The notes beneath the pieces are model-generated. The model worked only from the letters and a program-made list of their open reading frames with translations. It was not told where the DNA came from and ran no database searches. From Candidatus Doudnabacteria bacterium (GTDB taxonomy: Bacteria > Patescibacteriota > Doudnabacteria > UBA920 > O2-02-FULL-48-8): DNA of 64,000 nt. How positions within the stretch are numbered: position 1 is the stretch's first letter; every line of letters begins with the position of its first letter. Positions 2,990 to 49,591 of the stretch are shown here, piece after piece. A program made the translations under genes and the position numbers. The stretch lies in assembly GCA_016182875.1 (NCBI GenBank), contig JACPFQ010000001.1, positions 85,680-149,679 on the forward strand, read 5' to 3'.

Positions 2990-3016
2990 AAACTGCAGGA
3001 TAATTTCTGCAGTTTT
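2990..3016. terminator. Bidirectional rho-independent terminator between convergent recR and rplU
   Basis: AAAACTGCAG-gataattt-CTGCAGTTTT: an 8-bp stem with A-run and T-run flanks, embedded in a larger palindrome spanning 2955-3040. Confidence 0.6.
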
Positions 3017-3044
3017 CTAATTACTATTTACTTATTACTATTTC

Positions 3045-3359
3045 CTAACTTATTGACTCAATCTGCACCACAGTTTGCTGCTGCCGGTGCCCGTACTTTC
3101 TTCGATACCTGGACTTAGCACGATATTTAAAAACCACAAGCTTATCAGCTTTATTTTGGTCAATGACTTTGCCTATTACTTTAGCGCCGGAAACATAAGG
3201 CTTGCCTAAATCAAATTTACCTTCATCAGAAACCAGCAGTACCTTATCAAAAGTAACGCTGTCCCCTGCTTTGCCGGGAAGCTTTTCGATTATCAACTTT
3301 TCATTTGGAGAAACCAGGTATTGTTTGCCGCCGGTTTCAATCACTGCCTGTTTTGCCAT
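3045..3359 (-). CDS. rplU: 50S ribosomal protein L21
   Basis: 'MAKQAVIETGGKQYLVSPNEKLIIEKL...VVFKYRAKSRYRRKYGHRQ' is the L21 signature. Start taken at the MAKQ methionine. Confidence 0.9.
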   Translation of the reverse strand: MAKQAVIETGGKQYLVSPNEKLIIEKLPGKAGDSVTFDKVLLVSDEGKFDLGKPYVSGAKVIGKVIDQNKADKLVVFKYRAKSRYRRKYGHRQQQTVVQIESIS

Positions 3360-3416
3360 ACCGTGATATGTTAGCATAAAAATAGCTTTCGGGTCAATCT
3401 TGCGAAATATCCGCCT

Positions 3417-3445
3417 AAAAGCCCCGGCACTTACCCGGGGCTTTT
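3417..3445. terminator. Hairpin AAAAGCCCCGG-cacttac-CCGGGGCTTTT in the rplU upstream region; terminator or attenuator-like
   Basis: 9-bp GC stem flanked by A and T runs on both strands. Function unknown. Confidence 0.4.
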
Positions 3446-3665
3446 AGCAAACGTGGTGCTTTTCCATATTGTGTTTTTCCCTCGATTAGGCTAACCGCCT
3501 TATGGCTTTCCACAAATTTTTTTGGAAAAGCATACGTGCGTTACGGCCTGTCGCATCTTTATATCTCTCCTTTCGCCACAATTTTAACGCTTCTGCCGCG
3601 GATTGTAAATAAAAATTCCGTTTTTCTTTGAATTTCAGCAAAATAGGGCCAAATTCAGGTAATAA

Positions 3666-3696
3666 AATGACGACGGGAATGTCGTTGTTTTATTAA
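3666..3696 (+). repeat. Hairpin repeat AAAATGACGAC-N7-TCGTTGTTTT, copy 1
   Basis: Near-identical element at 4957-4988. Stem GACGAC/GTCGTT followed by a T-run. Confidence 0.5.
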
Positions 3697-3794
3697 CGAA
3701 AAGTCGTTGAAAAAGGCGGCTAATTTGAATTTGTCCTCGATTCCAGTTGCTCATTTCAACACAGGTGCTATACAAAAGTCAGAAAGGAGTGGTT

Positions 3795-4004
3795 ATGAGA
3801 GAAATCACTCGAAAACTTAAAAGGATTATCGAGTCGGGAGATGCAAGAATGATTCTATTGGAAGATGACCAAGGTCGCGTTCTATTGGAAATTTCTCCAG
3901 ACCTTAGTTTTCTTAAATCAACGCTAAATCTCGTAAAAGGAATTACGAAAACCGTCAAAAATTGCAAATTGATTGTCACAAAAAAACAATTATTATTCAA
4001 CTAA
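3795..4004 (+). CDS. Hypothetical small protein (70 aa)
   Basis: Good SD AAAGGAGTGGTT-ATG. No recognisable domain. Confidence 0.45.
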   Translation: MREITRKLKRIIESGDARMILLEDDQGRVLLEISPDLSFLKSTLNLVKGITKTVKNCKLIVTKKQLLFN

Positions 4005-4038
4005 ACATTTCGCGATATGCTATCATTATCCTATCGAT

Positions 4039-4776
4039 ATGCATATCTCGACTGTCATCGAACAACTGGGCTACCCGCCCAGCGAGGTCAGACTTTATCT
4101 GGCAGCTTTGGACATTGGCGAAAGCACAATTACTGATTTAGCCAACAAAGTCGGCATGCCCAGAACCAGTGTTCAAAGCGTGATTGAAGATATGCAAAAC
4201 AGGGGTTTGATGCACAGTTACATCAAACGCAAACGCAGGTACTGGGTGGCTGAAAATCCGGAAAAACTCATGATCTTACTCAAAGAACGCGAGGCCGCGC
4301 TCAAAAGCATCATGCCGGAACTGCAGGCCAAGCGCTTCACCCATGGCGGGCGGTTTGTGGTCCAGATTTACAATGGGCCAACTCAAATTAAACTAATCAT
4401 GGATGATATAATCGATACCAAACATCATATCTCCGCCATTGTTTCTTGGGACGAATGGAAAACGTTTTTGGGCTCCGATTTTGTCAAAGACTTCATCGAA
4501 CGCCGCGTTCAGCATTTTCTTAGGGTGCGTCTGTTGACGGCCCAAACCCCGTCGTCGGTTGAGCTTAAAAAACTGGACGAGCAAAGCTTGCGGCACACCA
4601 AATTCTTGCCTGACAACGCAGGTATCAACAATTCCATCTTTATCTACGGCAACAAGCTCGCCATTATTTCCATCAATAAGCGGCAACCCATGGGGATCGT
4701 CATTGACGATTTGGACATTGCGCACTCAGCTGAAATATTATTTGAAGCTTTATGGAACCAATGTTTGGAGCATTAA
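4039..4776 (+). CDS. TrmB-family transcriptional regulator (N-terminal wHTH)
   Basis: 'LGYPPSEVRLYLAALDIGESTITDLANKVGMPRTSVQSVIEDMQNRGLM' fits the TrmB HTH pattern. The ORF track gives a TTG start at 3973 overlapping the upstream ORF; the ATG at 4039 is preferred. Confidence 0.65.
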   Translation: MHISTVIEQLGYPPSEVRLYLAALDIGESTITDLANKVGMPRTSVQSVIEDMQNRGLMHSYIKRKRRYWVAENPEKLMILLKEREAALKSIMPELQAKRFTHGGRFVVQIYNGPTQIKLIMDDIIDTKHHISAIVSWDEWKTFLGSDFVKDFIERRVQHFLRVRLLTAQTPSSVELKKLDEQSLRHTKFLPDNAGINNSIFIYGNKLAIISINKRQPMGIVIDDLDIAHSAEILFEALWNQCLEH

Positions 4777-4810
4777 TGCTATAATTAAATCAAACTGGAA
4801 AGGACAAAAT

Positions 4811-4939
4811 ATGATGGGCTACGATGGTTGGGGAATGATGGGTTACGGAAGCGGGATTGGCTGGATAACTATCCTGCTGGTCTGGACAACACTGGGCTTT
4901 TGCATTGCCGCTCTTTGGAAGTACACCAGCAAGAAGTAA
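4811..4939 (+). CDS. Putative small Gly-rich membrane peptide (42 aa)
   Basis: 'MMGYDGWGMMGYGSGIGWITILLVWTTLGFCIAALW', one TM helix, SD GGAAAGGAC, followed by the terminator at 4957-4988. Confidence 0.35.
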   Translation: MMGYDGWGMMGYGSGIGWITILLVWTTLGFCIAALWKYTSKK

Positions 4940-4956
4940 CTTACTAGTTTTTTAAA

Positions 4957-4988
4957 AAATGACGACAATTTAGTCGTTGTTTTTTTGT
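4957..4988 (+). terminator. Rho-independent terminator; copy 2 of the hairpin repeat at 3666-3696
   Basis: GACGAC-aatttag-GTCGTT followed by TTTTTTTG. Confidence 0.55.
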
Positions 4989-5135
4989 TGTTTTTTCAAT
5001 GATTTATATGCAGTTTGATATATTTTCAGTGCTGGTCGTTGCAAATAAAAAACACGGTAGTAAAATTAGATTGACAAAGCCATCGAGTTAACAAAGGTCG
5101 TCGACAGGCAAGCAAGGTAACGAATTTCAATTAAT

Positions 5136-5759
5136 ATGAAAATAAGACATGTCACCACTCAAGAAGCCAGGCTTGTGGGACAGGAAATTGGCATCGACTG
5201 GAACGAAGTCGACTTGGAGCAATTCCGCCGGGGAATGGAAGTCGAATTTGAGCATGGGCTTATTGACGAACAGACGAATATAACCAACGATAACCCCCTG
5301 CTGACCGGCAAAATCGCCTTAGCTCACCTAAAAGAACTGCCGGATTATTACACTCGACTCGAAAAGATGGAACAAAATCAAGAAGAGTATCAGGAAGCCG
5401 GAAAACCGCATTATTACGGCAATACCATCCGGAAGCTTTTTCTCGTTTCAGCCTTGATAATGGTTATTTCGCTTCCGTTTGCCCAGACCTCACTCAACCT
5501 TCCAGTCTCAATATCAATCGTGGCAATCCTCATTTTGGCCGCTTTTGCGGGAATAATTAGTCCGAGGCTGTTCGCAACAGTTGAGATTGATACGGTCGTG
5601 GCGGCTTTAGGATTTCTGACGTTCGAGTATTTTGGCGTTAAATCATACTCCGAGCACAATGCCTTCTTCTTCGTCATAAACCAAATTCTCGCCGCATTGT
5701 TTTTGTTTGCGGCATACTTTGGAGTAAAAAACTGGCGAGGCATGCTCACCGCCAGATAG
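5136..5759 (+). CDS. Hypothetical membrane protein: soluble N-terminal domain plus about 4 TM helices
   Basis: The N-terminus 'GQEIGIDWNEVDLEQFRRGMEVEFEHG...KIALAHLKELPDYYTRLEKME' resembles a conserved DUF (possibly DUF5661; from memory only). The C-terminal half is hydrophobic. Confidence 0.55.
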   Translation: MKIRHVTTQEARLVGQEIGIDWNEVDLEQFRRGMEVEFEHGLIDEQTNITNDNPLLTGKIALAHLKELPDYYTRLEKMEQNQEEYQEAGKPHYYGNTIRKLFLVSALIMVISLPFAQTSLNLPVSISIVAILILAAFAGIISPRLFATVEIDTVVAALGFLTFEYFGVKSYSEHNAFFFVINQILAALFLFAAYFGVKNWRGMLTAR

Positions 5760-6212
5760 TTACGGTTGCAGTTTCATCACTTCGCCGATTTGGATGTGGT
5801 TTTTTTTAATCCAGCCGGCGTTAACTTCAAGCACGGAGTCGATTTCGACTGTTGGCTGGTAAAGCTTCAACTGATAATCTTCTCTGCCGGGTTCGGGCTC
5901 GAGGTTGGAGCTTATATCCACCACATGGCTATCTCGAATCCAAATGATATCTATACCGAATTTCATGTTTTTCATCCAAAAACCAGGCCTGCTCGGTTCA
6001 TCAAAGACAAACAACATGCCCTGATTTTCATTTAACTCCTCTCTGCCGGATAGACCGACCGCTCTTTCATCTTGCGTATCTGCCAGCTCGATGTTTAATT
6101 TTTTTCCGGCCAGCTCCACAGTCCCGTCATTGTAGCTTGAGCCGGTTTCCTGCAAATTGCATGCCGCGGCCGCAAAGGCAACTGAAAACAGAAGGATAAT
6201 AACTTTATTCAT
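5760..6212 (-). CDS. DUF192 (COG1430) lipoprotein
   Basis: Lipobox 'AAAACN'. 'GLSGREELNENQGMLFVFDEPSRPGFWMKNMKFGIDIIWI' is the DUF192 core. Confidence 0.7.
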   Translation of the reverse strand: MNKVIILLFSVAFAAAACNLQETGSSYNDGTVELAGKKLNIELADTQDERAVGLSGREELNENQGMLFVFDEPSRPGFWMKNMKFGIDIIWIRDSHVVDISSNLEPEPGREDYQLKLYQPTVEIDSVLEVNAGWIKKNHIQIGEVMKLQP

Positions 6213-7254
6213 TGAGCTTTCTTTTGACCTTGTAAATGATAAACACTGTAGCCACCAAAGCAGCCATAACGGAGAGCAAAATTAGAAGCAGAACGAGCTT
6301 GCCCATTGATTGCAGAAACAAGGCTGACGCGCCAAAAATCCCGCTCAAGGCATAAAGGAGCAATACGGCCTGCGGCTCCGAAAGCCCGATATCCAACAGC
6401 CGGAAGTGCAGATGCTTCCGATCTCCTTTAAAGGGATTTTGTCTGTTGAAAACTCGCTGCAAAACCACCCAAAACGCATCCATCACCGGAATGCCGAGCA
6501 CCAGGACGGCAGTCGCTATTTTGCCTCCTGAGACTATGGCCAAGATGGCCAGAATAAAGCCGGCAAAAGTGCTGCCCCCTTCTCCCAAAAAAATCCTCGC
6601 GGGATGAAAATTCAAAATAAGGAATCCCAGAAGCGCTCCAGCGAAAGTGATGGAAAGAAGCGCTGTCTGGGGCTGCATGACTTCCGGCGTGAGCGACAGT
6701 CCAAACAAAACTAAAGCTGAAATGGCGGAAATCCCCGTCGTCAGGCCGTCCATGCCATCCAAAACCTTGGTGGTAAAGGTCATGGTTAGAATCCAAATAA
6801 AAACTATGACCGATGACCATAACGATGACAAAAGAATAACTCCGCCAGTTAAGGGATTATGAATGCTCACTGCCGAAATGCCGGAAGAAACCACGACCAA
6901 AGCCGCAAGAATGGGAAAAATTACCGAGTACTGGGGAGCCAGGCGGTATTTGTCGTCCAGATATCCGCCAATCATAAGGATAGCGCCTCCGGCCCAAATC
7001 GCGGCAAGAATTTTAAGCGGTATGTTGCCACCAATCAAATATCCCAAAAGCACGCCTACGGTAAAGGTGACCAGAAAAAAGCTTCCGAAAATTGCCAAGC
7101 CGCCCATGGTCGGGACCGGATGCTTATGCAGCCTCCGCTCGTTATCCGGAATGTCCAGAATCTTTCTTCTTACGGCGATTCGAGCGACCAGGAAAGTTCC
7201 GATAAATGAAATAAGGAATGCCAGCGCGAAGGAAATGAAGTAAATAGAATTCAT
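6205..7254 (-). CDS. Glycosyltransferase family 4 (WecA/TagO/MraY-like polyprenyl-phosphate sugar-1-P transferase)
   Basis: 'KHPVPTMGGLAIFGSF', 'LDDKYRL', 'KVLDGMDGLTTG', and a multi-TM topology. The start is taken at MNSIYF; the longer ORF overlaps the upstream gene. Confidence 0.85.
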   Translation of the reverse strand: MNSIYFISFALAFLISFIGTFLVARIAVRRKILDIPDNERRLHKHPVPTMGGLAIFGSFFLVTFTVGVLLGYLIGGNIPLKILAAIWAGGAILMIGGYLDDKYRLAPQYSVIFPILAALVVVSSGISAVSIHNPLTGGVILLSSLWSSVIVFIWILTMTFTTKVLDGMDGLTTGISAISALVLFGLSLTPEVMQPQTALLSITFAGALLGFLILNFHPARIFLGEGGSTFAGFILAILAIVSGGKIATAVLVLGIPVMDAFWVVLQRVFNRQNPFKGDRKHLHFRLLDIGLSEPQAVLLLYALSGIFGASALFLQSMGKLVLLLILLSVMAALVATVFIIYKVKRKLNE

Positions 7255-7258
7255 ACGG

Positions 7259-8647
7259 TCATTTAACCCGGGCTTCTTCCAGCTGTTCCAGCGAGAGCGG
7301 GTGTTTGCGGTGCTTGGGCGTGATGAAAAATTCCATGTACTTTCCAAACATCAGCCTGGTTTGGGCGTCGATCGCAGGCGCTGAACCGAAGACAGATGCG
7401 ACCAGCGGGCTGAACACCCATTGAAAAATCATGGAGAAGTATTTCCAGCGGCTGTATTCTTTGGGCTTGGGCGGCAGCAGCACCAAATTCACGTATACGG
7501 AAAAAATCAGGAAGAAAGTCGCCACACTCATAATTATCCTGGTCATGAATGGCAGGTTGACTGCCAGCACGGTTTGTCCGAACCTGTCTCCGCCCAAAAT
7601 CAGCGGCAGCCAGCCCAAGATGGCAATCATAATCGAGGCCGTGGCCCAGAAATAATGCCCTTCAATGAGCCTTTCCGCGTACAACAGCCGCTTCCAAAGC
7701 GGAATTCTATTGTTTTTCACAAACTCCGGAATGACCAAGGATAGCTCGGTCACGCCCCAAGCCCACCTCCTTTTTTGCTTATATTGGGCAACCAGGGTTT
7801 CCCAGTAGGTTTTTCCCAAAACCGCGTCCATGGAAACCGTGGTGAATAAAGGCTGGGTGCTGTAGTCGCCGTTGAAATGCAGGAAGCACTGCCAGAAGAT
7901 GTGCGAGTCATCCGGGATAATGTCTACGCGCCAAAACCCAACGTCGACCAGGGTCCTAAAGCTCATGGCGTGGGAAGAAAAAGTTATCAAACGGTCCGGA
8001 CGCGAGGCTTCCACCAGCTGCCAAAAAGATGAGGAAGTCGCGATTACCCGCGCAATCGCCGGCGTGTCCCAAATATTGTTATGGAACATCGGCATTGGCT
8101 GATAGCTCATCTGAAAAGGTTTTTGCGCCGTCAGAAAATAAAAGGCCAATTGGGCAAAGTAGCTGTATGAGACGGTGGTGTCCGCGTCGAATGCCGAAAC
8201 AATCACGTCCTCATATGGGATTCGCAGCTCATCAATGAGTTTCTGCGCTTGCTTCGCGGCATAAGTTATATTGGCGCCCTTGACCCTGGCTTCTCCTGCG
8301 ACATGGTCTGGATGAATGGTGGCCAAGAATTTAAAAAACTTATCTGAATATTTGGCTTTCAAATATTCTATTTTCGGCCGAGCAGACTCTCTTTCCCGCT
8401 CTTCAGTTGCCAAAACAAGAATTATCCGCTCCTTGGGATAATCGGCGGATAAACAAGATTCGATGGAAGAAGAAAGCACCGACACGTCTTCGGTGACTGT
8501 CGGCAGAATAATCAAATGGTAAATTCTTTTCCAGTCAAGATTGCGCCGCAGCGGAATTTGGTTGATTCGGGAAAGCTGGTCTTGATAAAATACCTTCCAT
8601 TTCTTATTTTGAGCTTTGTCATATTCCACCGACAACTCAAACCTCAA
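7259..8647 (-). CDS. Processive family-2 glycosyltransferase (cellulose/chitin-synthase-like, QxxRW)
   Basis: 'AFDADTTV' with D,D,D motifs, 'QKRRWAWG' (Q-x-x-R-W), and C-terminal TM helices. Confidence 0.8.
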   Translation of the reverse strand: MRFELSVEYDKAQNKKWKVFYQDQLSRINQIPLRRNLDWKRIYHLIILPTVTEDVSVLSSSIESCLSADYPKERIILVLATEERERESARPKIEYLKAKYSDKFFKFLATIHPDHVAGEARVKGANITYAAKQAQKLIDELRIPYEDVIVSAFDADTTVSYSYFAQLAFYFLTAQKPFQMSYQPMPMFHNNIWDTPAIARVIATSSSFWQLVEASRPDRLITFSSHAMSFRTLVDVGFWRVDIIPDDSHIFWQCFLHFNGDYSTQPLFTTVSMDAVLGKTYWETLVAQYKQKRRWAWGVTELSLVIPEFVKNNRIPLWKRLLYAERLIEGHYFWATASIMIAILGWLPLILGGDRFGQTVLAVNLPFMTRIIMSVATFFLIFSVYVNLVLLPPKPKEYSRWKYFSMIFQWVFSPLVASVFGSAPAIDAQTRLMFGKYMEFFITPKHRKHPLSLEQLEEARVK

Positions 8648-8844
8648 TTCATCGAGTGGATTTTCAGCCGCGCGTATGAATGCATCAGGTGGATTGCGAC
8701 ATTGCCGGCTTTAAGAAACCAGTACAAATCAAAAATAATGATGTAAACAGAAACCCAAACCGGATGAAAATACGCCAGCAAAGGAGAGCCCAATAAAGTC
8801 GCCCAAGTCAAAACACCCGGGAAAATCTCAAAAAATTTAGCCAT
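8644..8844 (-). CDS. Small membrane protein (66 aa), translationally coupled to the GT2 gene
   Basis: Hydrophobic, with a 4-nt overlap onto the downstream gene. No homology recognised. Confidence 0.35.
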   Translation of the reverse strand: MAKFFEIFPGVLTWATLLGSPLLAYFHPVWVSVYIIIFDLYWFLKAGNVAIHLMHSYARLKIHSMN

Positions 8845-9214
8845 TGATGCGGATAAGGTTAATGCTTGCGATTAGAAAAATCAATTGAACGATAACGGTT
8901 GAAAAGTTGATGAAAAATGCGGCCAACTTTTCCCGCTTGAAAAAATAATTTGCCAGCAAAAAATTAATAATCAGAATCAGAAGCGCCGCGGCGGGAATGA
9001 TATAAATCGCATACGCTTTATCAATCAAATCAGCGCCGTATATGACATTATAGTGCAGGACGATGCTACTGGAACTGATTTTTACCTTGCTGGCTAGAAT
9101 CACCCAATGTATAATGTTAAAAAGCAATGCCAGAGCAATTGGTACCAGGTTGAACGGTTCCGAAATAAAAGGTCTTTTGGAAGCTAAAAGTTGATTGAGC
9201 TTGTCAAGAAGCAT
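8837..9214 (-). CDS. Membrane protein (125 aa, 3-4 TM)
   Basis: Hydrophobic. Overlaps the next minus-strand gene by 8 nt (operon-like). Confidence 0.4.
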   Translation of the reverse strand: MLLDKLNQLLASKRPFISEPFNLVPIALALLFNIIHWVILASKVKISSSSIVLHYNVIYGADLIDKAYAIYIIPAAALLILIINFLLANYFFKREKLAAFFINFSTVIVQLIFLIASINLIRING

Positions 9215-10807
9215 CGCCTAGCCATTATACAAAAAATGACCAATTTTATAAAGCCCCATTGGCCCATAATTACCATAATAATTTTGGGGATTTTTTTCCG
9301 GTTTTGGCAGATTTCTCAATTGCCCGGCGGCCTTTTCCCCGACGAAGCGGCCAACGGGTTGGACGTTAATTCAATTTTGGCCGGAGACTATAAGCCTTTT
9401 TATGAACGAGGGAACGGACGCGAGGCTTTGTTTTTTTATTTTCTGGCCATCCCCGTGGCCTTATTCGGGCGCGGAGCGTGGCAGCACCACGTCGTCTCAG
9501 CCGGCATCGGCCTGCTCTCGGTCATCGCCGCCTACTTGCTTGCGAAAAAAATGTTCGGCAAACGCATAGCCTTACTGGCAGGCTTTCTCATGGCGGTTTC
9601 CAGCTACGCGGCCACAATCAGCCGCACCGCCTTCCGCGCCAATACTGTTCCCCTGTTTTCCATCCTCGTTCTTTATTTTTTGATTTGTTTTTTCCAAACC
9701 CGGGAGCCAAAAAAGAAATATTGGTATGCCGCCTTATCGGGGCTGGCGTTCGCCTTGGGATTCTATACCTACATTTCTTTTCGCATGATGCTGCCCCTGC
9801 TCTTTGGCTTCGCTATTCTCCTCGTTTTGTCGCAGAGGCATAAGCTTAAGAGCATCATTCAGCAGTACTGGAAATATAAAACCGTTTTCGCCTTAACCTT
9901 CATCCTGGGCTTCTCCTGGATTGGATATTATTTCCTAACTCATCCGGGAACGTTCATCGGACGGGCCGGACAAGTCTCGATTTTTTCGCCTGATTTAAAC
10001 CAGGGGAATATTCTGGGAACTTTCTGGGAGGTGTTCAAAGCGACAATCCTCAGCTTTTTCAGTGCCGGCGACGTTAATTGGCGGCATAACGTTTCCGGCT
10101 ACCCGTTCTTATCACCCTTGGCTTCCCCATTTTTCGCTTTGGCTCTGATTGTATTCAGCTTTGCGATTTTTAAATTGTTGCGGCAGGTTTGGAGCAGGAA
10201 ATTAAATAAAGAGACAGTTTATCAGTCGTTGGTCGCGGTTTGGTTTTGGTTTATGCTTATTCCCGAATTGACCACGGCCGAAGGAATTCCTCACGGCTTG
10301 CGCCTGATCGGCGTCATTCCACCGATGTTTATTCTCTCTGCCTGGGGCATCGATTGGTTGTGGCAAAGAATCCGAATACGCGAAGCCTATTTTAAAGCCG
10401 GCCTGGCTTCCGTTTTTCTTTTTTCTACTTTTGCCGTTAATTATCACGCCTACTTCGTCGTTGCGGCAGAAAGCCCCGAATACTACTATGCTTTCCGCTC
10501 GGATCTTTCGGTTGTGAGCCAATACCTAAATGCCCGGAACCAAAAAGAGAAGACTTACTTATCACTGGATAAATTTTCGGTCCAGACCGTAGACTACCTG
10601 ACTACCGCCGCGAACCGTCCGTATATTCTTTTGGTTCCGGAAAAAAGCTTTGCCATAAAACTCAACCAAGGCGACCAAGTGGTATTCACCCAGAGCACCA
10701 TTTTTGACAGCATTAAATTCAAACAGCACCACCCAGACAGCAAGCTTGTGCTCGAGAGAAAAAATAAATTTGGCGAAAAAATAATGCTTGTCTACGAACG
10801 ATTATGA
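9191..10807 (+). CDS. PMT/ArnT-family (GT39/GT83) membrane glycosyltransferase
   Basis: 'DEAANGL', about 12 TM helices, and the COG1807 pattern. The true start may be the M at 9236. Confidence 0.8.
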   Translation: MIELVKKHRLAIIQKMTNFIKPHWPIITIIILGIFFRFWQISQLPGGLFPDEAANGLDVNSILAGDYKPFYERGNGREALFFYFLAIPVALFGRGAWQHHVVSAGIGLLSVIAAYLLAKKMFGKRIALLAGFLMAVSSYAATISRTAFRANTVPLFSILVLYFLICFFQTREPKKKYWYAALSGLAFALGFYTYISFRMMLPLLFGFAILLVLSQRHKLKSIIQQYWKYKTVFALTFILGFSWIGYYFLTHPGTFIGRAGQVSIFSPDLNQGNILGTFWEVFKATILSFFSAGDVNWRHNVSGYPFLSPLASPFFALALIVFSFAIFKLLRQVWSRKLNKETVYQSLVAVWFWFMLIPELTTAEGIPHGLRLIGVIPPMFILSAWGIDWLWQRIRIREAYFKAGLASVFLFSTFAVNYHAYFVVAAESPEYYYAFRSDLSVVSQYLNARNQKEKTYLSLDKFSVQTVDYLTTAANRPYILLVPEKSFAIKLNQGDQVVFTQSTIFDSIKFKQHHPDSKLVLERKNKFGEKIMLVYERL

Positions 10808-12255
10808 AAAATTTCAAGCTGATTGGAATATTGATTCTTGCGGGTTTGCTGCGCCTTTATCACAACACGTCAGTGGCGCTATGGCATGACGAAGCTTTTT
10901 CGGCCCTCTATACCCGCGACTACTCCTGGACCGAAATGATGCATCGGATTGGACTGGACGTCCATCCGCCGCTTTATTATATTCTTCTCAAACTTTGGAC
11001 CTATGTCTTTGGACATTCTTTAATCTCTCTCCGGGGTGTTTCTACTATATTTGGCGTGCTTACGGCCTGGGCCGGCTACTTGTTGGTCAAAAAAATAACC
11101 AAAAGCGACAAAATCGCCTTGTTTGCCGGGTTGCTTCTGGCCATCAATCCTTTTCAAATTCAATATTCCCTGGAAGCGCGGATGTACACGCTTGGCACAT
11201 TCTTAGTGCTGCTGTCCAGCTACCTGCTCCTGCGGGCGCTTGAGACCAATGAAAGGAAGTTCTGGCTCGGCTACGCGGCCGCGGCAGCCGCTTGTTTGTA
11301 CACCCACTACTTTTTGTTCTTTTCAGTGGCCGCCCAAGTGCTATATTTGTGCTATATCCTGCTTAAAGCAAAAAAATGGCCGCTTATGCTAAATGCTGTC
11401 ATGGCCGCAGCTGCCATTTTGGTATTATACATTCCTTGGATCGGAAGTTTTCTCGTCCAAAATCAGCGGGTGGCTGCTGCGTATTGGATTCCGGCCATGG
11501 ACCGCTGGTCTGTACCAGGAACCGTATGGAAAATGGCATTTGGCGGGCAGTGGACAAGCCACTCCTTGCTCGTGATAGCCGCGATTGTCGGCCTCTTTCT
11601 GCTTTACTATTATTTCAAGAAAATCAAAGATGACTCGAAAATTTTGGTACTCCTCGGATTGCTCTTTCCCTTCATCGCCTCAATCGCTTTCTCGCTCAGA
11701 TCTTCTATTTATCTAGACCGCTATTTCGTATTCGCCGCTTTGTTTCTCATTATCATAGCCGCGGTTTCAATTATGCAAATCCAAAGATACGCCGTAAGAA
11801 GAACTCTAATCTCGCTCGTCGTCGTCGTTTCCCTGATAGCTTTTTTCAAAAACTGGAAAGAGCTCGACATCAGCCGAAAGCCAGGCATGGCCAAGGCCTC
11901 CGAGGCAGTCAACGAACAATTCACGAAGGACGATAAAATTTATGTCGGCTCCCCGTTCGTGTTCTTCACCTTCAAATACTATAACCGGACTGGCATCGCA
12001 CCCAAGCTTTACTCCGCAGGCAGTTTGGAAACCATCCCGCACTTTTCCGGGACAGCCCTGCTCACCAATGGCGACTTAATCCTCGACTTCAAAGAAGCCA
12101 AAAAAAATGACAATGTTTGGCTGATTTGGACCAACGGCTTTGGTTCAAGCAAGCCCAATGTCCCCGGCAGCTGGAGTATCATTTCGGAGCGGGAATACGA
12201 AGACGCCCCTGATTTTAAGGGAAAAATCGTCATCACGCGGTATCATGTGAACTAG
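10804..12255 (+). CDS. Second PMT/ArnT-family (GT39/GT83) glycosyltransferase
   Basis: 'WHDEAFS', 'HPPLYYILL', multi-TM. Overlaps the upstream paralog by 4 nt. Confidence 0.8.
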   Translation: MKNFKLIGILILAGLLRLYHNTSVALWHDEAFSALYTRDYSWTEMMHRIGLDVHPPLYYILLKLWTYVFGHSLISLRGVSTIFGVLTAWAGYLLVKKITKSDKIALFAGLLLAINPFQIQYSLEARMYTLGTFLVLLSSYLLLRALETNERKFWLGYAAAAAACLYTHYFLFFSVAAQVLYLCYILLKAKKWPLMLNAVMAAAAILVLYIPWIGSFLVQNQRVAAAYWIPAMDRWSVPGTVWKMAFGGQWTSHSLLVIAAIVGLFLLYYYFKKIKDDSKILVLLGLLFPFIASIAFSLRSSIYLDRYFVFAALFLIIIAAVSIMQIQRYAVRRTLISLVVVVSLIAFFKNWKELDISRKPGMAKASEAVNEQFTKDDKIYVGSPFVFFTFKYYNRTGIAPKLYSAGSLETIPHFSGTALLTNGDLILDFKEAKKNDNVWLIWTNGFGSSKPNVPGSWSIISEREYEDAPDFKGKIVITRYHVN

Positions 12256-12289
12256 CACTATGTAGCGTGCCGATTCATCGGCTCAAGCT

Positions 12290-12324
12290 GATAAATCAGC
12301 GCGCTACAATCACAGTGCCCTTGA
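12290..12324. repeat. Palindromic element GCTGATAAATCAGC with conserved flanks (family also at 49504-49540)
   Basis: ATTCATCG..GCTGATAAATCAGC..GCTACA is shared by both loci. Overlaps the 3' end of the UMP kinase coding region. Confidence 0.5.
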
Positions 12325-12979
12325 ATTTCTTGCCGGACAAATAATCCTTAAGATTTTTCAAATTTCGGCCGTTTATGATTACGACCTCAATCCCTGATTT
12401 TTCGGCGAGCTTGGCAATTGAGGGGTCAAACGGTTTGTGCTGGCCGGGTTTTCGGGAAGCTCCAAATTGAGCGCGAAATTGCCTCCAGGTCATAAAAGGG
12501 ATCAACTTCGCATTCTTAAACTTACGCGGGTCGCGGTCAAAAACCCCGTCAACATTGGTCAGGTTTATGACCGTCTTTATGTTAAGCTTTCGGGCATAAT
12601 TAATACTGCTCGAATCAGACGAGCCGCCGGGTTTGATGCCGCCGAGGGCAACCATTAGTGGCTCTTTATGCCATGCGAAATTTTTGTATGTCATCACCGG
12701 TTCGTGTTTTTTTGCGCCCAAAATCCAGCGGACGAACTGCGCGTGGAACCAGTTGGTCTCAATGCCAATCCAATCCAGCCCGGCATCGGAGACATTAGCG
12801 GCTTTTCTTGCCGCTGACTGATAGTTTCTGGCTGTGGCCCCGCCGCCCGGCAGGATCAGAAACTTCTTGCCTGTTTTTGCCTGATCCCTAACCACTTTCC
12901 TGAAATTTTTCAAAAATTTAATGTCAATCTTATCCGGCACGATGATCGAGCCCCCCAGCGATATAATGTAGCGTTTCAT
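12296..12979 (-). CDS. pyrH: Archaeal-type UMP kinase (amino-acid-kinase fold); internal ATG with its own SD, and in frame with the upstream FtsQ-like ORF
   Basis: 'ISLGGSIIVP', 'ILPGGGATARNY', 'VALGGIKPGGSSDSS', 'VINLTNVDGVF'. SD GGAGA 6 nt upstream of the internal ATG. Confidence 0.75.
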   Translation of the reverse strand: MKRYIISLGGSIIVPDKIDIKFLKNFRKVVRDQAKTGKKFLILPGGGATARNYQSAARKAANVSDAGLDWIGIETNWFHAQFVRWILGAKKHEPVMTYKNFAWHKEPLMVALGGIKPGGSSDSSSINYARKLNIKTVINLTNVDGVFDRDPRKFKNAKLIPFMTWRQFRAQFGASRKPGQHKPFDPSIAKLAEKSGIEVVIINGRNLKNLKDYLSGKKFKGTVIVAR

Positions 12980-13870
12980 TTTTGTTCTCCAATAAACCCA
13001 TTTTTCCGAGCGCATGTCGATATAGGCCAGGTTGCTCTTGTCTTTGGCCGGAATGTGCTTATTAATCATAAGCGACAAACCGGCCAGCTGAACCGCTACC
13101 GGCCTACTGACGTCAAAGAACACGCTCCAGCCGGCCTCCGAAGTAAACTGGGATTCAAAGCTATTCTTGGAAGTAATTTTAATCGAACTGATCCTCGAAT
13201 CTATTTTGGACGGCCAGGCCCGGTGCATCGACTGGATGAACGCGACCAGCTTCGGATTGCTTAAAATCTCCCCCAACACCACGTCCTGGTCTTGGTTTTC
13301 ATTTACCACCAAAGGCAGGCCTTTTTCGTCCGTGACCTCTTTCAAGACCAAACCCTCTTCATCGACCAAAAATTTTCTCTCCTTCATACTCAGGACAAAG
13401 CCAGGGTTGCGCTCCGATATTTCAATCTCAATTTTGTTTGGCCAAGATCTATTGACCTTTGTTACTTCCCGCACTTCTGGTACGGTTTTGGTCATTAATC
13501 TATTCAGCCGGCCGCGCGTCATAAGAAAAAAATGATTCCTGGGGATTAAGAACAGCCGGCTGTTGGAAGCGGCGTCCAAAACCTCTTTTACCTGTTCATA
13601 TGAAACTTGGCCCCCACCCTTCACCGCAACTTCGGTAATCAAGAGTTTGCCTGAAACCACCGAATAATAAAAGACCAGGATAAAAGCCGCGGCGCTGATA
13701 AACTTAATTCTTCGGCGGCTGAAAGGCGGCAAAAGAGGCACTCTGAAGCGATACTTCGGCATGTTAAACGTCCGCTTATAGGCGGCGGCTTGTCTGAGGC
13801 GGGAGCGGAAAGTGGGCGAGCCGAATCTCCTTCGGGGTTCCAGTTTTCTTCTGTGCTTCGAGAATATCAT
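12980..13870 (-). CDS. ftsQ: FtsQ/DivIB-like cell-division protein (TM helix plus POTRA), with no stop before the UMP kinase
   Basis: Basic N-tail, TM 'FISAAAFILVFYYSVV', and POTRA 'LITEVAVKGGGQVSYEQVKEVL...WPNKIEIEISERNPGFV'. Part of a continuous 524-codon ORF, 12296-13870. Confidence 0.65.
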
Positions 13871-13970
13871 AAGGTATCGATACTAATCAACGAATGAATA
13901 CTAATTATACGAATAATTAATGCTTAAGTTTTATTAGTATCATTAGTAAATTAGTATATTCGCATCGATG

Positions 13971-34761: not shown

Positions 34762-34866
34762 CAAAAATCAAAGAGCAAAAATCAAAATGTAATTAAAAAT
34801 GCAAAAAGAATAATTTTTAATTTTGCTTTATCATTTTGCATTTTGACTTTTGAATTTTAAATTCTC
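34762..34866. repeat. ~105-bp AT-rich palindromic intergenic repeat, copy A (family also at 45413-45522 inverted and 61623-61733)
   Basis: CAAAAATCAAAG(A/C)(G/T)CAAAAATCAAAATGTAATTAAAAATGCAAA...TTTGCATTTTGACTTTTGAATT. Lies between convergent genes. Confidence 0.7.
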
Positions 34867-34873
34867 ATTAGCC

Positions 34874-36784
34874 CTATCTATGCTCTGCCCACCATTCGTA
34901 AACCTGCCTAGCCACAGGCACGGCAACGGAACTCCCCTCGCCCCCGGATTCAACAAGAATCGTTAGGGCGATTTTTGGATCCTCGAACGGAGCGTAAGAG
35001 GTGAACCAGGCGTGCGTGCGGCTGGGATTCCTGGCGTCAAACTGGGCCGTGCCTGTTTTTCCGGCGATGGAAATGGACAAACTATCAAGCGACCGCGCGC
35101 TTCCGGCCGTGACTGCCTGCCGCATGCCATCCTGCACGACTCTCACCCACTTGCTGTCCAAAAAATTTTCTTTAAGCACTACTGGCGTCTTTTTTTCCAC
35201 TCCTTCGATCTCATCGACGATATAAGGCCGCATGAGTTTGCCACCGTTGGCAATCGTGGCCGTCCAGCTGTTGACCTGAAGCGGCGTGACCAGCAAATCC
35301 CCCTGGCCAATGGAATAGTGGTAGGTGTTGCCCAAGTACCACTGTTCGTTTCGCGTCTTTAATTTCCACTCGGGGTCAGGCACCAAGCCGCCTTTTTCGT
35401 TCTGCAAATCAATGCCTAAGGGCTGCCCCAGGCCGAATTTCCGATACCACTCGGCAAGTTTTTCCGGCCCAAGCCCCCTGATGCTTGTTTTGGCATTGCC
35501 GCCGCCAACCGTGTAGAAGTAAATGTCCGAAGAGCGGGCGATCGCCGAGTAAATATCCATCAAGCCCAAACCCGAACGGTCGTAGCCATAAAAAGTGAAG
35601 TTGCCCACATGTATCACGCCGTCATCCAAAATTTTGGTTTCCGGAGTGACTACCCCTTCGGTCAGCGCCGCTACTGCGAGCATGGGTTTGACCGTGGACC
35701 CTGGCGGGTAAGCGCCGGCGATGACGCGATTAAGTAAGGGAATATTTTTATCATTGATTAAGCTTTCGTATTCGGAAGTAGAGATCCCCCGGGCAAACCA
35801 GTTGTTATCGAAGCTCGGCAGCGAGATGTAAGCCAAAACTTTCCCCGTGGCCGGCTCTGTGGCAATAGCCGCGGCTTTTTTGGCTGAGCCGCGTTTCATG
35901 ATGTCTGTCAACGCCTCATATAAAACCGTTTCAAGTTCATAATCAAGATTGAGCTTGAGGTTGCTGCCGGCCACGGCCGGCACTTCCGGCAGGGTTTTTC
36001 TGAAGCTGCCCCGGGCATCGATTTCTATCTGCTTTCGGCCCGGGATGCCTCGCAAAAACCGCTCATAGTAAATTTCCAGGCCGGTTTTGCCGATGTTGTC
36101 GTTGAGCAGATAATTTTCGCCTGCATGCTCCTCGAGCTCTCCGCGCGTGATTTTACCCGTATAGCCGACCAGGTGGGAAAAAACAAGCGGGTCCTTATAC
36201 TCGCGAATCGGATTGTTTTCGACCACAAAACCTTCGAAGCTGTCTTGCCTGCTCATAAGAATCAATGCTTGTTCCTTGCTGATGTTCTGAGCAATGGTCA
36301 AAAAACCTAAATTATCTTGCCTGCTTGAAGCAATGATTTTTTCGATTTCTGCCGGGTCCTCATTTATAATTGCGGCAACCTCGCTGATATTCGACTTAAG
36401 CTCGGCCTCGTCTTTGGGAAAACCCGAAGGATTGGCTACCAGCTCAAAGCTTGGAATGTTGCCGGCAATTACTTTTCCCGTTTTATCAAGGATCAGGCCC
36501 CGCGGAGCGATGACATAATTGGTTCTAAGTTTATTGCCTTCGGCCAAATTTCTAAATTCCTCACCCCTAACCGCTTGAAGAAAGTAAATCCTTCCCAGAA
36601 TCAAACCAAAGCACAAAATCAAGATTAAACCCAAAAGATTCAAATTCGGACGATACCGCTCGTCATCCATGACTTCCGGCTCCGCCACCTGCGAGTCCAA
36701 AAAAGATTCTTCAAAGCTTAAGTCTTTTGTCTTTCTAATCTTTTTGCTTGTCGGTTTAAATTCAAATGGATTTTTCGCCGGCAT
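34874..36784 (-). CDS. mrdA: Penicillin-binding protein 2 (peptidoglycan D,D-transpeptidase) in the mre operon
   Basis: N-terminal TM anchor, dimerisation domain, and transpeptidase motifs 'GSTVKP', 'SIGQGD', 'KTGTAQ'. Confidence 0.88.
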   Translation of the reverse strand: MPAKNPFEFKPTSKKIRKTKDLSFEESFLDSQVAEPEVMDDERYRPNLNLLGLILILCFGLILGRIYFLQAVRGEEFRNLAEGNKLRTNYVIAPRGLILDKTGKVIAGNIPSFELVANPSGFPKDEAELKSNISEVAAIINEDPAEIEKIIASSRQDNLGFLTIAQNISKEQALILMSRQDSFEGFVVENNPIREYKDPLVFSHLVGYTGKITRGELEEHAGENYLLNDNIGKTGLEIYYERFLRGIPGRKQIEIDARGSFRKTLPEVPAVAGSNLKLNLDYELETVLYEALTDIMKRGSAKKAAAIATEPATGKVLAYISLPSFDNNWFARGISTSEYESLINDKNIPLLNRVIAGAYPPGSTVKPMLAVAALTEGVVTPETKILDDGVIHVGNFTFYGYDRSGLGLMDIYSAIARSSDIYFYTVGGGNAKTSIRGLGPEKLAEWYRKFGLGQPLGIDLQNEKGGLVPDPEWKLKTRNEQWYLGNTYHYSIGQGDLLVTPLQVNSWTATIANGGKLMRPYIVDEIEGVEKKTPVVLKENFLDSKWVRVVQDGMRQAVTAGSARSLDSLSISIAGKTGTAQFDARNPSRTHAWFTSYAPFEDPKIALTILVESGGEGSSVAVPVARQVYEWWAEHR

Positions 36785-37286
36785 ATCTAAGCATGAGTTT
36801 GGACACTAAAAGATAATAAAGATAAACCGGATACAGCACTATCAAATCCAATATCGCCTCAAGCCAGATTTTTTTTAAGCTGTCAACAAGACTAAAGGAA
36901 GCGCCAAGCCCCAATCGGGCAAAAATCTCCGATACGAAAAACGCTAAAAAATAATAAGCCACAACTGCCGCAAGCATGACCCCGGCCTGCGCCAAAAAGT
37001 TTTCTTTTTTTTCGGAAAACAGTCTTCCCGCAAGCCTAATGGCCATGACCAAGATAAGAAAACTAATGGTCATCACTCCGTCAGGAAGCGCGGAAACAAA
37101 GTCCGCGAGCATGCCGGCAAGAAGCGCTGCAGCCAGGGCCTCATGGAAAGAAGCGTAAATGGAAACAATCACCAAAAGCATGAGCATGAAATTGGGAAAG
37201 ACCTGGTTAATCGAAAAATTTTGAGCCAGGGCCGTCTGGACGACTGTTAAGATAAAAATCCCAATGCCAAGAATTAGATACTTCAT
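36762..37286 (-). CDS. mreD: Rod shape-determining protein MreD
   Basis: 174-aa polytopic membrane protein immediately downstream of mreC. Confidence 0.7.
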   Translation of the reverse strand: MKYLILGIGIFILTVVQTALAQNFSINQVFPNFMLMLLVIVSIYASFHEALAAALLAGMLADFVSALPDGVMTISFLILVMAIRLAGRLFSEKKENFLAQAGVMLAAVVAYYFLAFFVSEIFARLGLGASFSLVDSLKKIWLEAILDLIVLYPVYLYYLLVSKLMLRYAGEKSI

Positions 37287-38086
37287 TGCTTGATCACGAA
37301 CAAGAACCTTAGATTTCTTAAATCGGCTGACGGGCTGACATAGGCTTTTTGAAACAAGTCCGAAGAAGACGAACTGACGGAGCTGACCTCCCCCACCAGC
37401 AAGCCGCGCGGGAAGTCGCCGGAAAGTCCGGAAGTGACTAACTGGTCGCCGGTCTTTATAAGTTCGTTGTGAGTGATTAAATTAAACTTAAGGCTCAAGC
37501 CATGCTCGCCGGAAAGCAGTCCCAACGCTCCGGACTCCGCAACGAAAGCGTTGACGGTTAAGCTTGGATCGGTAATCAGCGTCACTTCCGAGGTCGTGGA
37601 ATAAACGCGGGTTACCTTTCCCACGAGCAGGCCGGGAGAGGCAATGACGCTGCTGCCCTCGGTTATCTGGCTGCTGCGCCCCTTATCGACGACAATGGTT
37701 TGGGTAAAACCGGTGGGATCGGAAATCTTTACCGCTACCGGAATAAGGTCAAAACTTGATTCCTGTTCAAAGTTCAAAGCCCTGCGCAAGGCTGCGTTTT
37801 CCTGCTTTGCCGCTTTGAGCCGGGCGTTTTCAAATGAAAGCTCGTCAACTTTCTGAGTCAGCTGATCGTTCTCGCTCGAGAGTTTTTTGATTAGAAAGAG
37901 GGTCTTGAATGTGGTTTTAATTCCGCTGCCCGCGTCCGATATAGTAGAGACCGAAGCGCCGTAAGCCTTCAGAATCCCGCTTTTGACCGGGTTTAGAAAA
38001 CCGGTGAGGCTTGCTATGATGAATAGCGAGACGAGCGCGAAAATGGCAAAGCTACGCTGAAAAGCTTTTGTGTAGATAAAACGCAT
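37283..38086 (-). CDS. mreC: Rod shape-determining protein MreC
   Basis: N-terminal TM, coiled coil 'SENDQLTQKVDELSFENARLKAAKQENAALRRAL', and C-terminal beta domains. Confidence 0.8.
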   Translation of the reverse strand: MRFIYTKAFQRSFAIFALVSLFIIASLTGFLNPVKSGILKAYGASVSTISDAGSGIKTTFKTLFLIKKLSSENDQLTQKVDELSFENARLKAAKQENAALRRALNFEQESSFDLIPVAVKISDPTGFTQTIVVDKGRSSQITEGSSVIASPGLLVGKVTRVYSTTSEVTLITDPSLTVNAFVAESGALGLLSGEHGLSLKFNLITHNELIKTGDQLVTSGLSGDFPRGLLVGEVSSVSSSSSDLFQKAYVSPSADLRNLRFLFVIKQ

Positions 38087-38153
38087 AGTAGAAAGTTAGA
38101 AACAAGAGATAAGAAATTAGACTCTCTTGTTTCTATTTACTTGTTTCTTGTTA

Positions 38154-40434: not shown

Positions 40435-40447
40435 GGATATTAGCGCA

Positions 40448-40503
40448 ACCCTGAACTTGTTTCAGGGTCTCGTCCTGAGATGCTGAATTAAATTCAGCAT
40501 TAC
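40448..40503. repeat. Double-hairpin repeat containing TGAGATGCTGAAT-taa-ATTCAGCATT (family also at 59080-59134)
   Basis: Hairpin CCCTGAAC..GTTTCAGGG, then the conserved GAGATGCTGAAT/ATTCAGCAT palindrome, then the (A/G)CG..TTTATTA tail. Confidence 0.55.
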
Positions 40504-40601
40504 GTATTTATTAAGCCCTTGAATTATATCAGTTGCTAAAAGCATTGACAAAAGCTCCAAAAAAGAGTGTAATTATATATCACTAACCAAGGAGGTATCC
40601 G

Positions 40602-40802
40602 ATGATGAGCGCGAAGATTGCCCACGTGATTTTCACTAGGCTCAACGCCTACGCCGCCCGGCACGACTTGACCCTGCCCGAGCTTCCGAACGTGGTCAGG
40701 GACCTGGCCGACGGCGTCGAGGAAGTCATCGCAGAGGAGGCGCAAGCCCGGCCCGCCGGCGACGCGGCAATGGGACTGGCCTCGGACGAACACCGAGGCT
40801 GA
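40602..40802 (+). CDS. Hypothetical 66-aa protein, the first ORF of the GC-rich cassette-like island
   Basis: SD AAGGAGG 7 nt upstream. GC about 62%. Confidence 0.45.
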   Translation: MMSAKIAHVIFTRLNAYAARHDLTLPELPNVVRDLADGVEEVIAEEAQARPAGDAAMGLASDEHRG

Positions 40803-40824
40803 TGGACACTGGCCCGACACAAAT

Positions 40825-40869
40825 ACGCGAGGAGTGCAGGAAACAGACACCCTAATGCACTCCCCGCGT
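40825..40869 (+). terminator. Island hairpin type H, copy 1: ACGCGAGGAGTGCA...TGCACTCCCCGCGT
   Basis: 13-bp imperfect stem followed by TTCTAATTTTTCC. Homologous hairpins at 42428-42468 and 43545-43608. Confidence 0.55.
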
Positions 40870-40893
40870 TCTAATTTTTCCGCATTAGCAAAA

Positions 40894-40969: not shown

Positions 40970-40997
40970 TCTTGGTGCTGCGAAAACTTGTTAGGAG

Positions 40998-42414: not shown

Positions 42415-42427
42415 GCTGGGTCTTCAG

Positions 42428-42468: not shown

Positions 42469-42493
42469 CCCAAAGCCAAAGGAGGAACCCTAA

Positions 42494-49580: not shown

Positions 49581-49591
49581 CAGACAGTTTC

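What the first reader, a model, noticed from the sequence alone, without database searches (positions are those of the whole stretch)
12296..13870. FtsQ-like division protein reads through in frame into an archaeal-type UMP kinase
A single 524-codon ORF starts as a canonical FtsQ/DivIB (cytoplasmic tail, TM helix, POTRA domain) and continues without a stop into a complete amino-acid-kinase-fold UMP kinase. The kinase has its own SD-preceded ATG at 12979. FtsQ's C-terminus is extracytoplasmic, so a true fusion would place a nucleotide kinase outside the cell. The more likely explanations are a lost stop codon, a sequencing or assembly error, or the kinase being expressed from the internal start. 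A genuine fusion would be unprecedented.
Basis: seen in the sequence. Interest (0 to 1): 0.55.

Follow-up and report, generated by a model that had tools for sequence, protein, structure and literature searches.

The report
FtsQ–UMP kinase fusion: 50 bases missing
The apparent fusion of a cell-division protein to a nucleotide kinase exists only because this one deposited metagenome contig lacks 50 bases that five independent assemblies of the same organism contain. With those bases restored, the two are ordinary, separate, overlapping genes.

Summary
The 524-codon ORF (12296..13870, minus strand) is real. It reads FtsQ (cytoplasmic tail, one TM helix, POTRA, FtsQ/DivIB-C) and then an archaeal-type UMP kinase with its own GGAG-preceded ATG at 12979. 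It is not an evolved fusion.

- The window comes from a Candidatus Doudnabacteria MAG, where the ORF is MBI2355683.1, named "UMP kinase".
- Logan assemblies from four runs (SRR12113383, -384, -420, -424) match the window 100% on both sides of the junction. They carry 50 extra bases between window 12990 and 12991. A fifth run (SRR12113422) also carries them, with one synonymous change.
- With those bases, ftsQ is 314 aa and ends in the conserved YYCFKGTAC…GEQK. Its TGA overlaps the pyrH ATG (ATGA), one base out of frame.
- Losing 50 nt (2 mod 3) removes that tail and puts the two genes in frame.
- None of 10 Doudnabacteria species genomes, and none of the top hits among 1.84 billion representative proteins, has the fusion.
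- A second stretch of 43 nt is missing 4.3 kb away (8656) and frameshifts a glycosyltransferase gene.

A local assembly or scaffolding error is most likely (about 0.7). A real strain-specific deletion is the main rival (about 0.25). Interest is low.

The parts
12991..13870 (-). ftsQ, codons 1-293 of the native 314: cytoplasmic K/R-rich tail, one TM helix, POTRA and the FtsQ/DivIB C domain. The last 21 native codons, including the conserved YYCFKGTAC motif, are not encoded here.
   Evidence: Pfam hits. 100% DNA identity to Logan contigs L001, L006, L010, L011, L031 and L032 over window 12991-13903. Alignment with orthologues.
12990..12991 (.). Junction where 50 nt are missing relative to independent assemblies. 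The missing gene-strand sequence is ACTGCTTCAAAGGCACGGCTTGCGCGTCCCTGCCTTCAGATAATTT[A/G]CAA. There is no microhomology at the edges.
   Evidence: L006 6188-6237, and the same stretch in L010, L011, L031, L032 and L001.
12980..12990 (-). GGAGAACAAAA. In the intact gene pair these bases are the last codons of ftsQ (…G E Q K) and also the Shine-Dalgarno sequence and spacer for pyrH. In the window they read W-R-T-K in the fused frame.
   Evidence: Sequence. The same motif lies before pyrH in relative L022, GGAAGGAGAACAAAAATGA.
12296..12979 (-). pyrH, archaeal-type UMP kinase, 227 aa, complete.
   Evidence: TIGR02076 at 162.5 bits, above the 158.05 cutoff. The best solved relatives are uridylate kinases 2j4j, 2bmu/2bri and 2ij9. 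The exact 227-aa product is called as a separate gene on 5 Logan contigs.
8656..8657 (.). Second junction, where 43 nt are missing relative to independent assemblies. It frameshifts a 542-aa Glyco_trans_2_3 gene, which corresponds to window 7259..8844 on the minus strand.
   Evidence: L006, L007, L008, L031 and L032 all carry the 43 nt. Translation shows the frame break.

Best explanation
The organism has two separate genes. ftsQ (314 aa) ends …YYCFKGTACASLPSDNLQGEQK-TGA. pyrH (227 aa, archaeal-type UMP kinase) starts at an ATG that overlaps that stop by 4 nt (ATGA), one base out of frame. Its Shine-Dalgarno sequence lies in the last ftsQ codons, so pyrH is made in the cytoplasm from its own start, probably coupled to ftsQ translation.

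The deposited MAG contig lacks 50 nt just upstream of that Shine-Dalgarno sequence. Because 50 is 2 mod 3, the loss removes the ftsQ tail and stop and puts ftsQ in frame with pyrH, giving the 524-codon ORF.

The loss is most likely a local assembly or scaffolding error: two contig ends joined across a short stretch that was never assembled. It is probably not a property of the cells. The join mechanism is inferred. The 50-nt difference and the separate-gene state are shown.
For: **The window's source and the missing bases**
- The fused protein is in public data only as MBI2355683.1, from one 151-kb NCBI MAG contig. No gene with this product is on record in the Logan, JGI or ENA assemblies.
- Logan assemblies of four runs (SRR12113383, -384, -420, -424) are 100% identical to the window over 913 nt on one side of the junction and 695-4335 nt on the other. 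All carry the same 50 extra nt. A fifth run (SRR12113422) also carries them, with one synonymous change.
- With the 50 nt, ftsQ is 314 aa (5 contigs) and pyrH is 227 aa (5 contigs), with an ATGA overlap.
- The restored tail carries the motif YYCFKxTPC, conserved in all 16 orthologues aligned.

**Relatives and the wider protein universe**
- Five of 10 Doudnabacteria species genomes have pyrH directly after ftsQ, overlapping by 4-17 nt out of frame. None is fused.
- The top 150 of 3499 hits among 1.84e9 representative proteins each match only one half of the ORF.

**Signs of an assembly problem**
- A second stretch of 43 nt is missing 4.3 kb away and breaks a glycosyltransferase gene. The remaining ~38.9 kb compared has no indels.
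- Logan contigs from low-coverage runs end within 8 nt of both sites: L008 starts inside the 43-nt stretch and L009 ends at window 12982.
- Neither junction has useful microhomology (0 and 1 nt) or a hairpin, which argues against replication slippage.
- A sister Doudnabacteria MAG (L002/L021) is listed under PRJNA640378 in the supplement of He et al. 2021. That the window's MAG comes from the same project is inferred, not verified. The project's genomes were MEGAHIT contigs scaffolded with IDBA-UD, and no local-error curation is described (PMC7906910).
- The same laboratory reports that local errors are frequent in uncurated MAGs, with 13 in one 1.13-Mb CPR genome, and that they propagate wrong gene sequences (PMC7111523).
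Against: - No reads were inspected, so the artefact is inferred rather than seen.
- A pure de Bruijn assembler cannot create a junction that has no shared k-mer, so the error would have to arise at the scaffolding or joining step.
- The window has no N at either site.
- The window differs from the Logan contigs by a few SNPs (8619, 14679). It may therefore represent a slightly different genotype in which the deletions are real.
- I could not identify which run the MAG was assembled from.
Confidence: 0.7

Rival explanations
1. A real, strain-specific 50-bp deletion is present in the population from which this MAG was assembled, together with the 43-bp one. In those cells ftsQ would lose its conserved C-terminal tail and be read through into pyrH. 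UMP kinase would still be made in the cytoplasm from its own Shine-Dalgarno sequence and ATG. The membrane-anchored FtsQΔC-kinase chimera would be a damaged by-product, not a new function.
For: - The window carries SNPs that are absent from all Logan contigs compared (8619, 14679). One of them lies 37 nt from the 43-nt junction, as expected for a linked haplotype.
- A MEGAHIT-type assembler normally needs reads that contain a junction before it outputs it (established knowledge).
- Run SRR12113422 shows another variant right at the ftsQ/pyrH boundary (the L001 tail). This locus is therefore polymorphic in the population.
Against: - Two out-of-frame deletions in conserved genes within 4.3 kb, in a genome otherwise about 100% identical to the population consensus, would both be deleterious.
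- Every contig found that covers the site has the 50 nt, and those contigs come from at least five runs.
- The deletion removes two nearly invariant cysteines of FtsQ.
Confidence: 0.25
2. A genuine, selected FtsQ-UMP kinase fusion protein. The kinase would either be displayed outside the membrane or be released by processing.
For: Only that the ORF is continuous in the deposited sequence and that both domains are intact enough to hit their family models.
Against: - It is not found in any orthologue or among 1.84e9 representative proteins.
- Independent assemblies of the same organism have separate genes.
- The linker is 4 residues created by a frame change, and the conserved FtsQ tail is destroyed.
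- An ATP-dependent kinase outside the cytoplasm has no substrate supply (established knowledge).
Confidence: 0.02

Closest known systems
Overlapping, translationally coupled gene pairs with an ATGA stop/start overlap
   Same: The restored locus has the ftsQ TGA overlapping the pyrH ATG by 4 nt, with the pyrH Shine-Dalgarno sequence inside the last ftsQ codons. Relatives L022 and L028 have the same 4-nt overlap. L021, L023 and L025 overlap by 8-17 nt.
   Different: In the window as deposited the overlap no longer exists, because the ftsQ stop is out of frame after the 50-nt loss.
Local assembly errors in uncurated metagenome-assembled genomes (Chen et al. 2020, PMC7111523)
   Same: A short stretch is absent from a scaffold, and it corrupts protein-coding genes that are then deposited and annotated. 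The pipeline (MEGAHIT plus IDBA-UD scaffolding) describes no local-error curation.
   Different: The published description speaks of unsupported sequence or of Ns at joins. Here the join has no Ns and the unsupported state could not be checked against reads.
FtsQ/DivIB (bitopic division protein: POTRA plus beta domain)
   Same: K/R-rich N-terminal tail, one TM helix, POTRA_1 and FtsQ_DivIB_C hits, and 40-56% identity to Doudnabacteria FtsQ.
   Different: The window copy lacks the lineage-conserved C-terminal YYCFKxTPC tail.
Archaeal-type UMP kinase (TIGR02076; solved structures 2j4j, 2bmu/2bri, 2ij9)
   Same: Full-length match above the curated cutoff. The nearest solved proteins are all uridylate kinases of this type. 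The type is common in Patescibacteria/CPR as a protein of about 226 aa.
   Different: Nothing unusual in the kinase itself. Only its upstream reading frame is altered.

Membership tests
FtsQ/DivIB | FtsQ-type POTRA domain | tested here: met
   PF08478, 27.9 bits against a cutoff of 23, residues 78-154.
FtsQ/DivIB | FtsQ/DivIB C-terminal (beta) domain | tested here: met
   PF03799, 23.9 bits against a cutoff of 21, residues 166-287.
FtsQ/DivIB | Single N-terminal TM helix with a positively charged cytoplasmic tail (N-in, C-out) | tested here: met
   The only hydrophobic 19-mer windows scoring above 1.6 lie at residues 54-79. The tail has 18 K/R against 1 D/E. Topology itself is inferred.
FtsQ/DivIB | Lineage-conserved C-terminal tail YYCFKxTPC (Doudnabacteria orthologues) | tested here: not met
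   Absent from the window ORF. Present in P0154, P0001 and all 16 orthologues aligned.
Archaeal-type UMP kinase (TIGR02076 pyrH_arch) | Score above the curated equivalog cutoff over the full model | tested here: met
   162.5 bits against 158.05, model positions 2-221 of 222.
Archaeal-type UMP kinase (TIGR02076 pyrH_arch) | Closest solved structures are UMP kinases of this type | tested here: met
   2j4j at E=6.7e-26; 2bmu, 2bri and 2ij9 are all named uridylate kinase.
Archaeal-type UMP kinase (TIGR02076 pyrH_arch) | UMP phosphorylation activity | not testable with these tools
   Requires an enzyme assay.
Genuine gene fusion (multidomain protein) | Same continuous ORF in orthologues or other genomes | tested here: not met
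   0 of 10 Doudnabacteria loci. No two-domain hit, or among the top 150 of 1.84e9 representatives. Longer kinases are fused to Sua5/YrdC or methyltransferase domains instead.
Genuine gene fusion (multidomain protein) | Junction reproduced in independent assemblies of the same organism | tested here: not met
   Assemblies from five runs carry 50 nt that separate the frames. The fused product is not on record.
Genuine gene fusion (multidomain protein) | Reads or peptides spanning the junction | not testable with these tools
   No read or proteome data are available here.
Local assembly/scaffolding error | Sequence differs from independent assemblies of the same population only by a short local gap that disrupts genes | tested here: met
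   50 nt at 12990 and 43 nt at 8656. No other indels in ~38.9 kb compared.
Local assembly/scaffolding error | No read perfectly supports the junction | not testable with these tools
   Needs read mapping of PRJNA640378 runs.

The most novel reading that the evidence does not exclude
The 50-bp deletion is real in a natural Doudnabacteria strain. That strain would live with an FtsQ that lacks its conserved cysteine-containing tail and is covalently extended by a UMP kinase domain, while cytoplasmic UMP kinase is supplied from the internal start. This would be a natural experiment on how much C-terminal damage FtsQ tolerates in a CPR bacterium. It would not be a new functional architecture.
Probability: 0.2. 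Interest if true: 0.3.

Novelty: not a real feature. Interest (0 to 1): 0.08.

Why it matters
Biologically it matters little. ftsQ and an archaeal-type pyrH are ordinary adjacent genes in this CPR lineage.

Practically, the result flags a mis-modelled protein in a public database. MBI2355683.1 is a 524-aa protein named "UMP kinase" that is really FtsQ lacking its C-terminal tail joined to UMPK. A broken glycosyltransferase gene lies in the same contig.

The case also shows a useful check. Independent per-run assemblies can expose local MAG errors that create "unprecedented" domain fusions.

Tried and rejected
- **Window's source in public contig collections.** I searched for a 37-mer just upstream of the junction in GTDB species-representative genomes and in JGI metagenome contigs. 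Both gave 0 hits, so the source and any junction variants could not be read there.
- **Displaced sequence elsewhere in the window.** I searched the window for the missing 50 nt and for the divergent L001 tail. Neither is present, which rules out a local rearrangement or duplication.
- **Hairpin or slippage mechanism.** DNA folding of the 50-nt and 43-nt stretches is no better than shuffled sequence (z = -0.18 and +1.57). Junction microhomology is 0 and 1 nt.
- **Systematic deletions across the window.** About 38.9 kb is collinear with Logan contigs, with only these two indels. This is not a genome-wide pattern.
- **Other overlapping ORF pairs.** I checked enolase/PGK and a few others as possible further frameshifts. 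They are only over-extended starts, not broken genes.
- **Linking SRA runs to the paper's tables.** I searched the supplementary tables of He et al. 2021 for the SRA run numbers and found none. The link between the window's MAG and its exact sample stays unverified.
- **Longer kinase homologues as possible FtsQ fusions.** None is one.

Full report
**1.

The minus strand carries one ATG-initiated ORF of 524 codons at 12296..13870.

- Pfam places POTRA_1 at residues 78-154, FtsQ_DivIB_C at 166-287 and AA_kinase at 299-500. All three are above their gathering cutoffs.
- The C-terminal 227 residues match NCBIfam TIGR02076 (pyrH_arch, an equivalog model) over positions 2-221 of 222, at 162.5 bits against a cutoff of 158.05.
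- Their nearest solved relatives are all uridylate kinases: 2j4j, 2bmu/2bri and 2ij9. From my own knowledge these are archaeal enzymes.
- The internal ATG at 12979 is preceded by GGAG with a 7-nt spacer.
- Hydropathy shows one TM segment at about residues 55-78. The tail before it has 18 K/R and 1 D/E, so the kinase would indeed sit on the outer side if the ORF were translated as one protein. The topology is inferred.

**2. The FtsQ part is truncated**

All FtsQ homologues found are standalone proteins of 288-337 aa from Candidatus Doudnabacteria and other CPR bacteria. All kinase homologues are standalone proteins of about 226 aa.

Aligned with 16 orthologues, the window's FtsQ stops at …AYIDMRSEKWVY. 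It lacks the conserved YYCFKxTPC tail, which has two cysteines conserved in at least 90% of sequences. Four unrelated residues (WRTK) replace that tail before the kinase Met.

**3. Independent assemblies of the same organism contain 50 nt that the window lacks**

The fused protein is public only as MBI2355683.1, "MAG: UMP kinase [Candidatus Doudnabacteria bacterium]", on one 151,426-nt NCBI contig. No gene with this product is on record in the Logan, JGI or ENA assemblies.

Exact-protein look-ups of neighbouring genes retrieved Logan per-run contigs from the SRR121133xx-1134xx series.

- Contigs from SRR12113384 (L006/L010), -383 (L011), -420 (L031) and -424 (L032) are 100% identical to the window on both sides of the junction: window 12991-13903, and 12296/8656-12990.
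- All four carry the same extra 50 nt between window 12990 and 12991. On the gene strand this is ACTGCTTCAAAGGCACGGCTTGCGCGTCCCTGCCTTCAGATAATTTACAA.
- A fifth run, SRR12113422 (L001), has the same 50 nt with one synonymous change.
- With these bases, ftsQ is 314 aa (P0154, on 5 contigs) and ends …YYCFKGTACASLPSDNLQGEQK.
- pyrH is then 227 aa (P0153, on 5 contigs), and the two genes overlap by ATGA.

The arithmetic explains the fusion. pyrH lies one base out of frame with ftsQ. Removing 50 nt (2 mod 3) upstream of GGAGAACAAAA brings the ftsQ frame onto the pyrH frame and deletes the tail.

**4. Orthologues show the same separate-gene arrangement**

In the nearest deposited relative (JACQJI010000028, GCA_016198045.1), ftsQ and pyrH overlap by 8 nt in different frames. 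The same PMT_2 glycosyltransferase genes follow them.

Ten Doudnabacteria species-representative loci were fetched.

- Five have pyrH directly after ftsQ, overlapping by 4-17 nt and always out of frame.
- One of these (RIFCSPHIGHO2_01_FULL_46_24) has almost the same junction, GGAAGGAGAACAAAAATGA.
- The other five have no pyrH within 3 kb. None is fused.

A full HMMER scan of 1.84 billion representative proteins with the 524-aa query gave 3499 hits. Each of the best 150 matches only residues about 1-297 or about 295-524. The few longer kinases are fused to Sua5/YrdC or methyltransferase domains, which are cytoplasmic partners, and never to FtsQ.

**5. Artefact or real deletion?**

Several observations favour an assembly or scaffolding error.

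- **A second gap.** A stretch of 43 nt is missing at window 8656 relative to L006, L007, L008, L031 and L032. It frameshifts a 542-aa Glyco_trans_2_3 gene. Two gene-breaking gaps therefore bracket a 4.3-kb block.
- **No other indels.** The other sequence compared (3019-24417 apart from a short gap, 34834-42835 and 45491-54985, about 38.9 kb in all) has none.
- **Fragile sites.** Logan contigs from other runs end within 8 nt of both sites: L008 starts inside the 43-nt stretch and L009 ends at 12982. This suggests the sites are hard to assemble.
- **No slippage signature.** Neither junction has useful microhomology, and the missing stretches do not form hairpins.
- **The likely pipeline.** A sister Doudnabacteria MAG (L002/L021) is listed under PRJNA640378 in the supplement of He et al. 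2021. That the window's MAG belongs to the same project is my inference. [quoted passage not shown]
- **Known error rate.** The same laboratory states that local assembly errors are frequent in uncurated MAGs, with 13 in one 1.13-Mb CPR genome, and that they propagate incorrect gene sequences (PMC7111523).

Other observations count against an artefact.

- I saw no reads.
- The window has no Ns.
- A de Bruijn assembler alone cannot invent a junction that has no shared k-mer.
- The window carries a few SNPs absent from the Logan contigs (8619, 14679), so a distinct genotype with real deletions cannot be excluded.

I put the artefact at about 0.7 and a real strain-specific deletion at about 0.25.

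**6. How the locus works**

These points are inferred from the restored sequence and from established knowledge of overlapping genes. ftsQ and pyrH are co-transcribed. Ribosomes terminating at the ftsQ TGA, or binding the GGAG inside its last codons, initiate at the overlapping pyrH ATG. UMP kinase is then made in the cytoplasm as a normal 227-aa protein.

If the deletion were real, that start and Shine-Dalgarno sequence are untouched, so the kinase supply would persist. The read-through chimera would be a damaged FtsQ.

**7. Verdict**

The ORF is really in the deposited sequence. The "fusion" is not a biological architecture. It is specific to this one contig, is contradicted by assemblies of the same organism from five runs and by all orthologues, and is explained exactly by a 50-nt gap.

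- Novelty: not a real feature.
- Interest: low (0.08).
- Residual value: it flags a mis-annotated public protein and shows that per-run assemblies can debunk MAG-derived domain fusions.

Noticed in passing
window 8656|8657 (gene 7259..8844, minus strand); SNP at 8619: 43 nt present in five independent Logan contigs are missing here. The loss frameshifts a 542-aa Glyco_trans_2_3 gene into a 63-aa stub plus a 462-aa ORF. A nearby SNP (8619) changes Ala to Asp. This is probably the same kind of local defect as at the ftsQ/pyrH junction.
   Followed up: partly
L001 (SRR12113422 contig), positions 975-1033: In this run ftsQ carries the 50 nt. After GGAGAACAAAA, however, it continues with 59 nt (TTCACCCCGTTAGAAATTATCAGC…) instead of pyrH, giving a 317-aa FtsQ that ends …GEQNSPR. 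The tail matches nothing in the window or in the other loci. It could be a strain variant, an insertion or a chimeric contig end; this is unexplained.
   Followed up: partly
window 13904-13939 (intergenic, upstream of ftsQ): Every Logan contig from six runs ends at 13903 on one side or at 13940-13953 on the other. This very AT-rich spacer with TTAGTAT repeats was therefore never assembled per run, and the window's version of it is unverified. One contig (L003) ends in the Nextera adapter CTGTCTCTTATACACATCT.
   Followed up: partly
proteins P0205, P0288, P0182, P0201: Archaeal-type UMP kinase homologues elsewhere occur fused to Sua5/YrdC (threonylcarbamoyl-AMP synthase-like) domains, in both domain orders, or to SAM methyltransferase domains. 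Whether these fusions are real or are also assembly products was not checked.
   Followed up: no
FtsQ orthologue alignment A2, columns ~311-320: Doudnabacteria and related CPR FtsQ proteins share a C-terminal YYCFKxTPC motif after the FtsQ/DivIB-C domain, with two nearly invariant cysteines. It may form an extracytoplasmic disulfide or a metal site. I know of no description of it.
   Followed up: no
window 3000-13900 and 34834-39206: ftsQ here is not next to ftsA/ftsZ. It is followed by pyrH and a glycosylation cluster: two PMT_2 genes, a GT2 gene and a Glycos_transf_4 gene. Elsewhere the window encodes MreB, MreC, MreD and a PBP2-type transpeptidase, a rod-shape set in a CPR genome.
   Followed up: no
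NCBI protein MBI2355683.1 (window 12296..13870): The public annotation names the 524-aa chimera simply 'UMP kinase'. The FtsQ of this genome is therefore invisible to name-based searches, and the kinase entry is 297 residues too long.
   Followed up: yes
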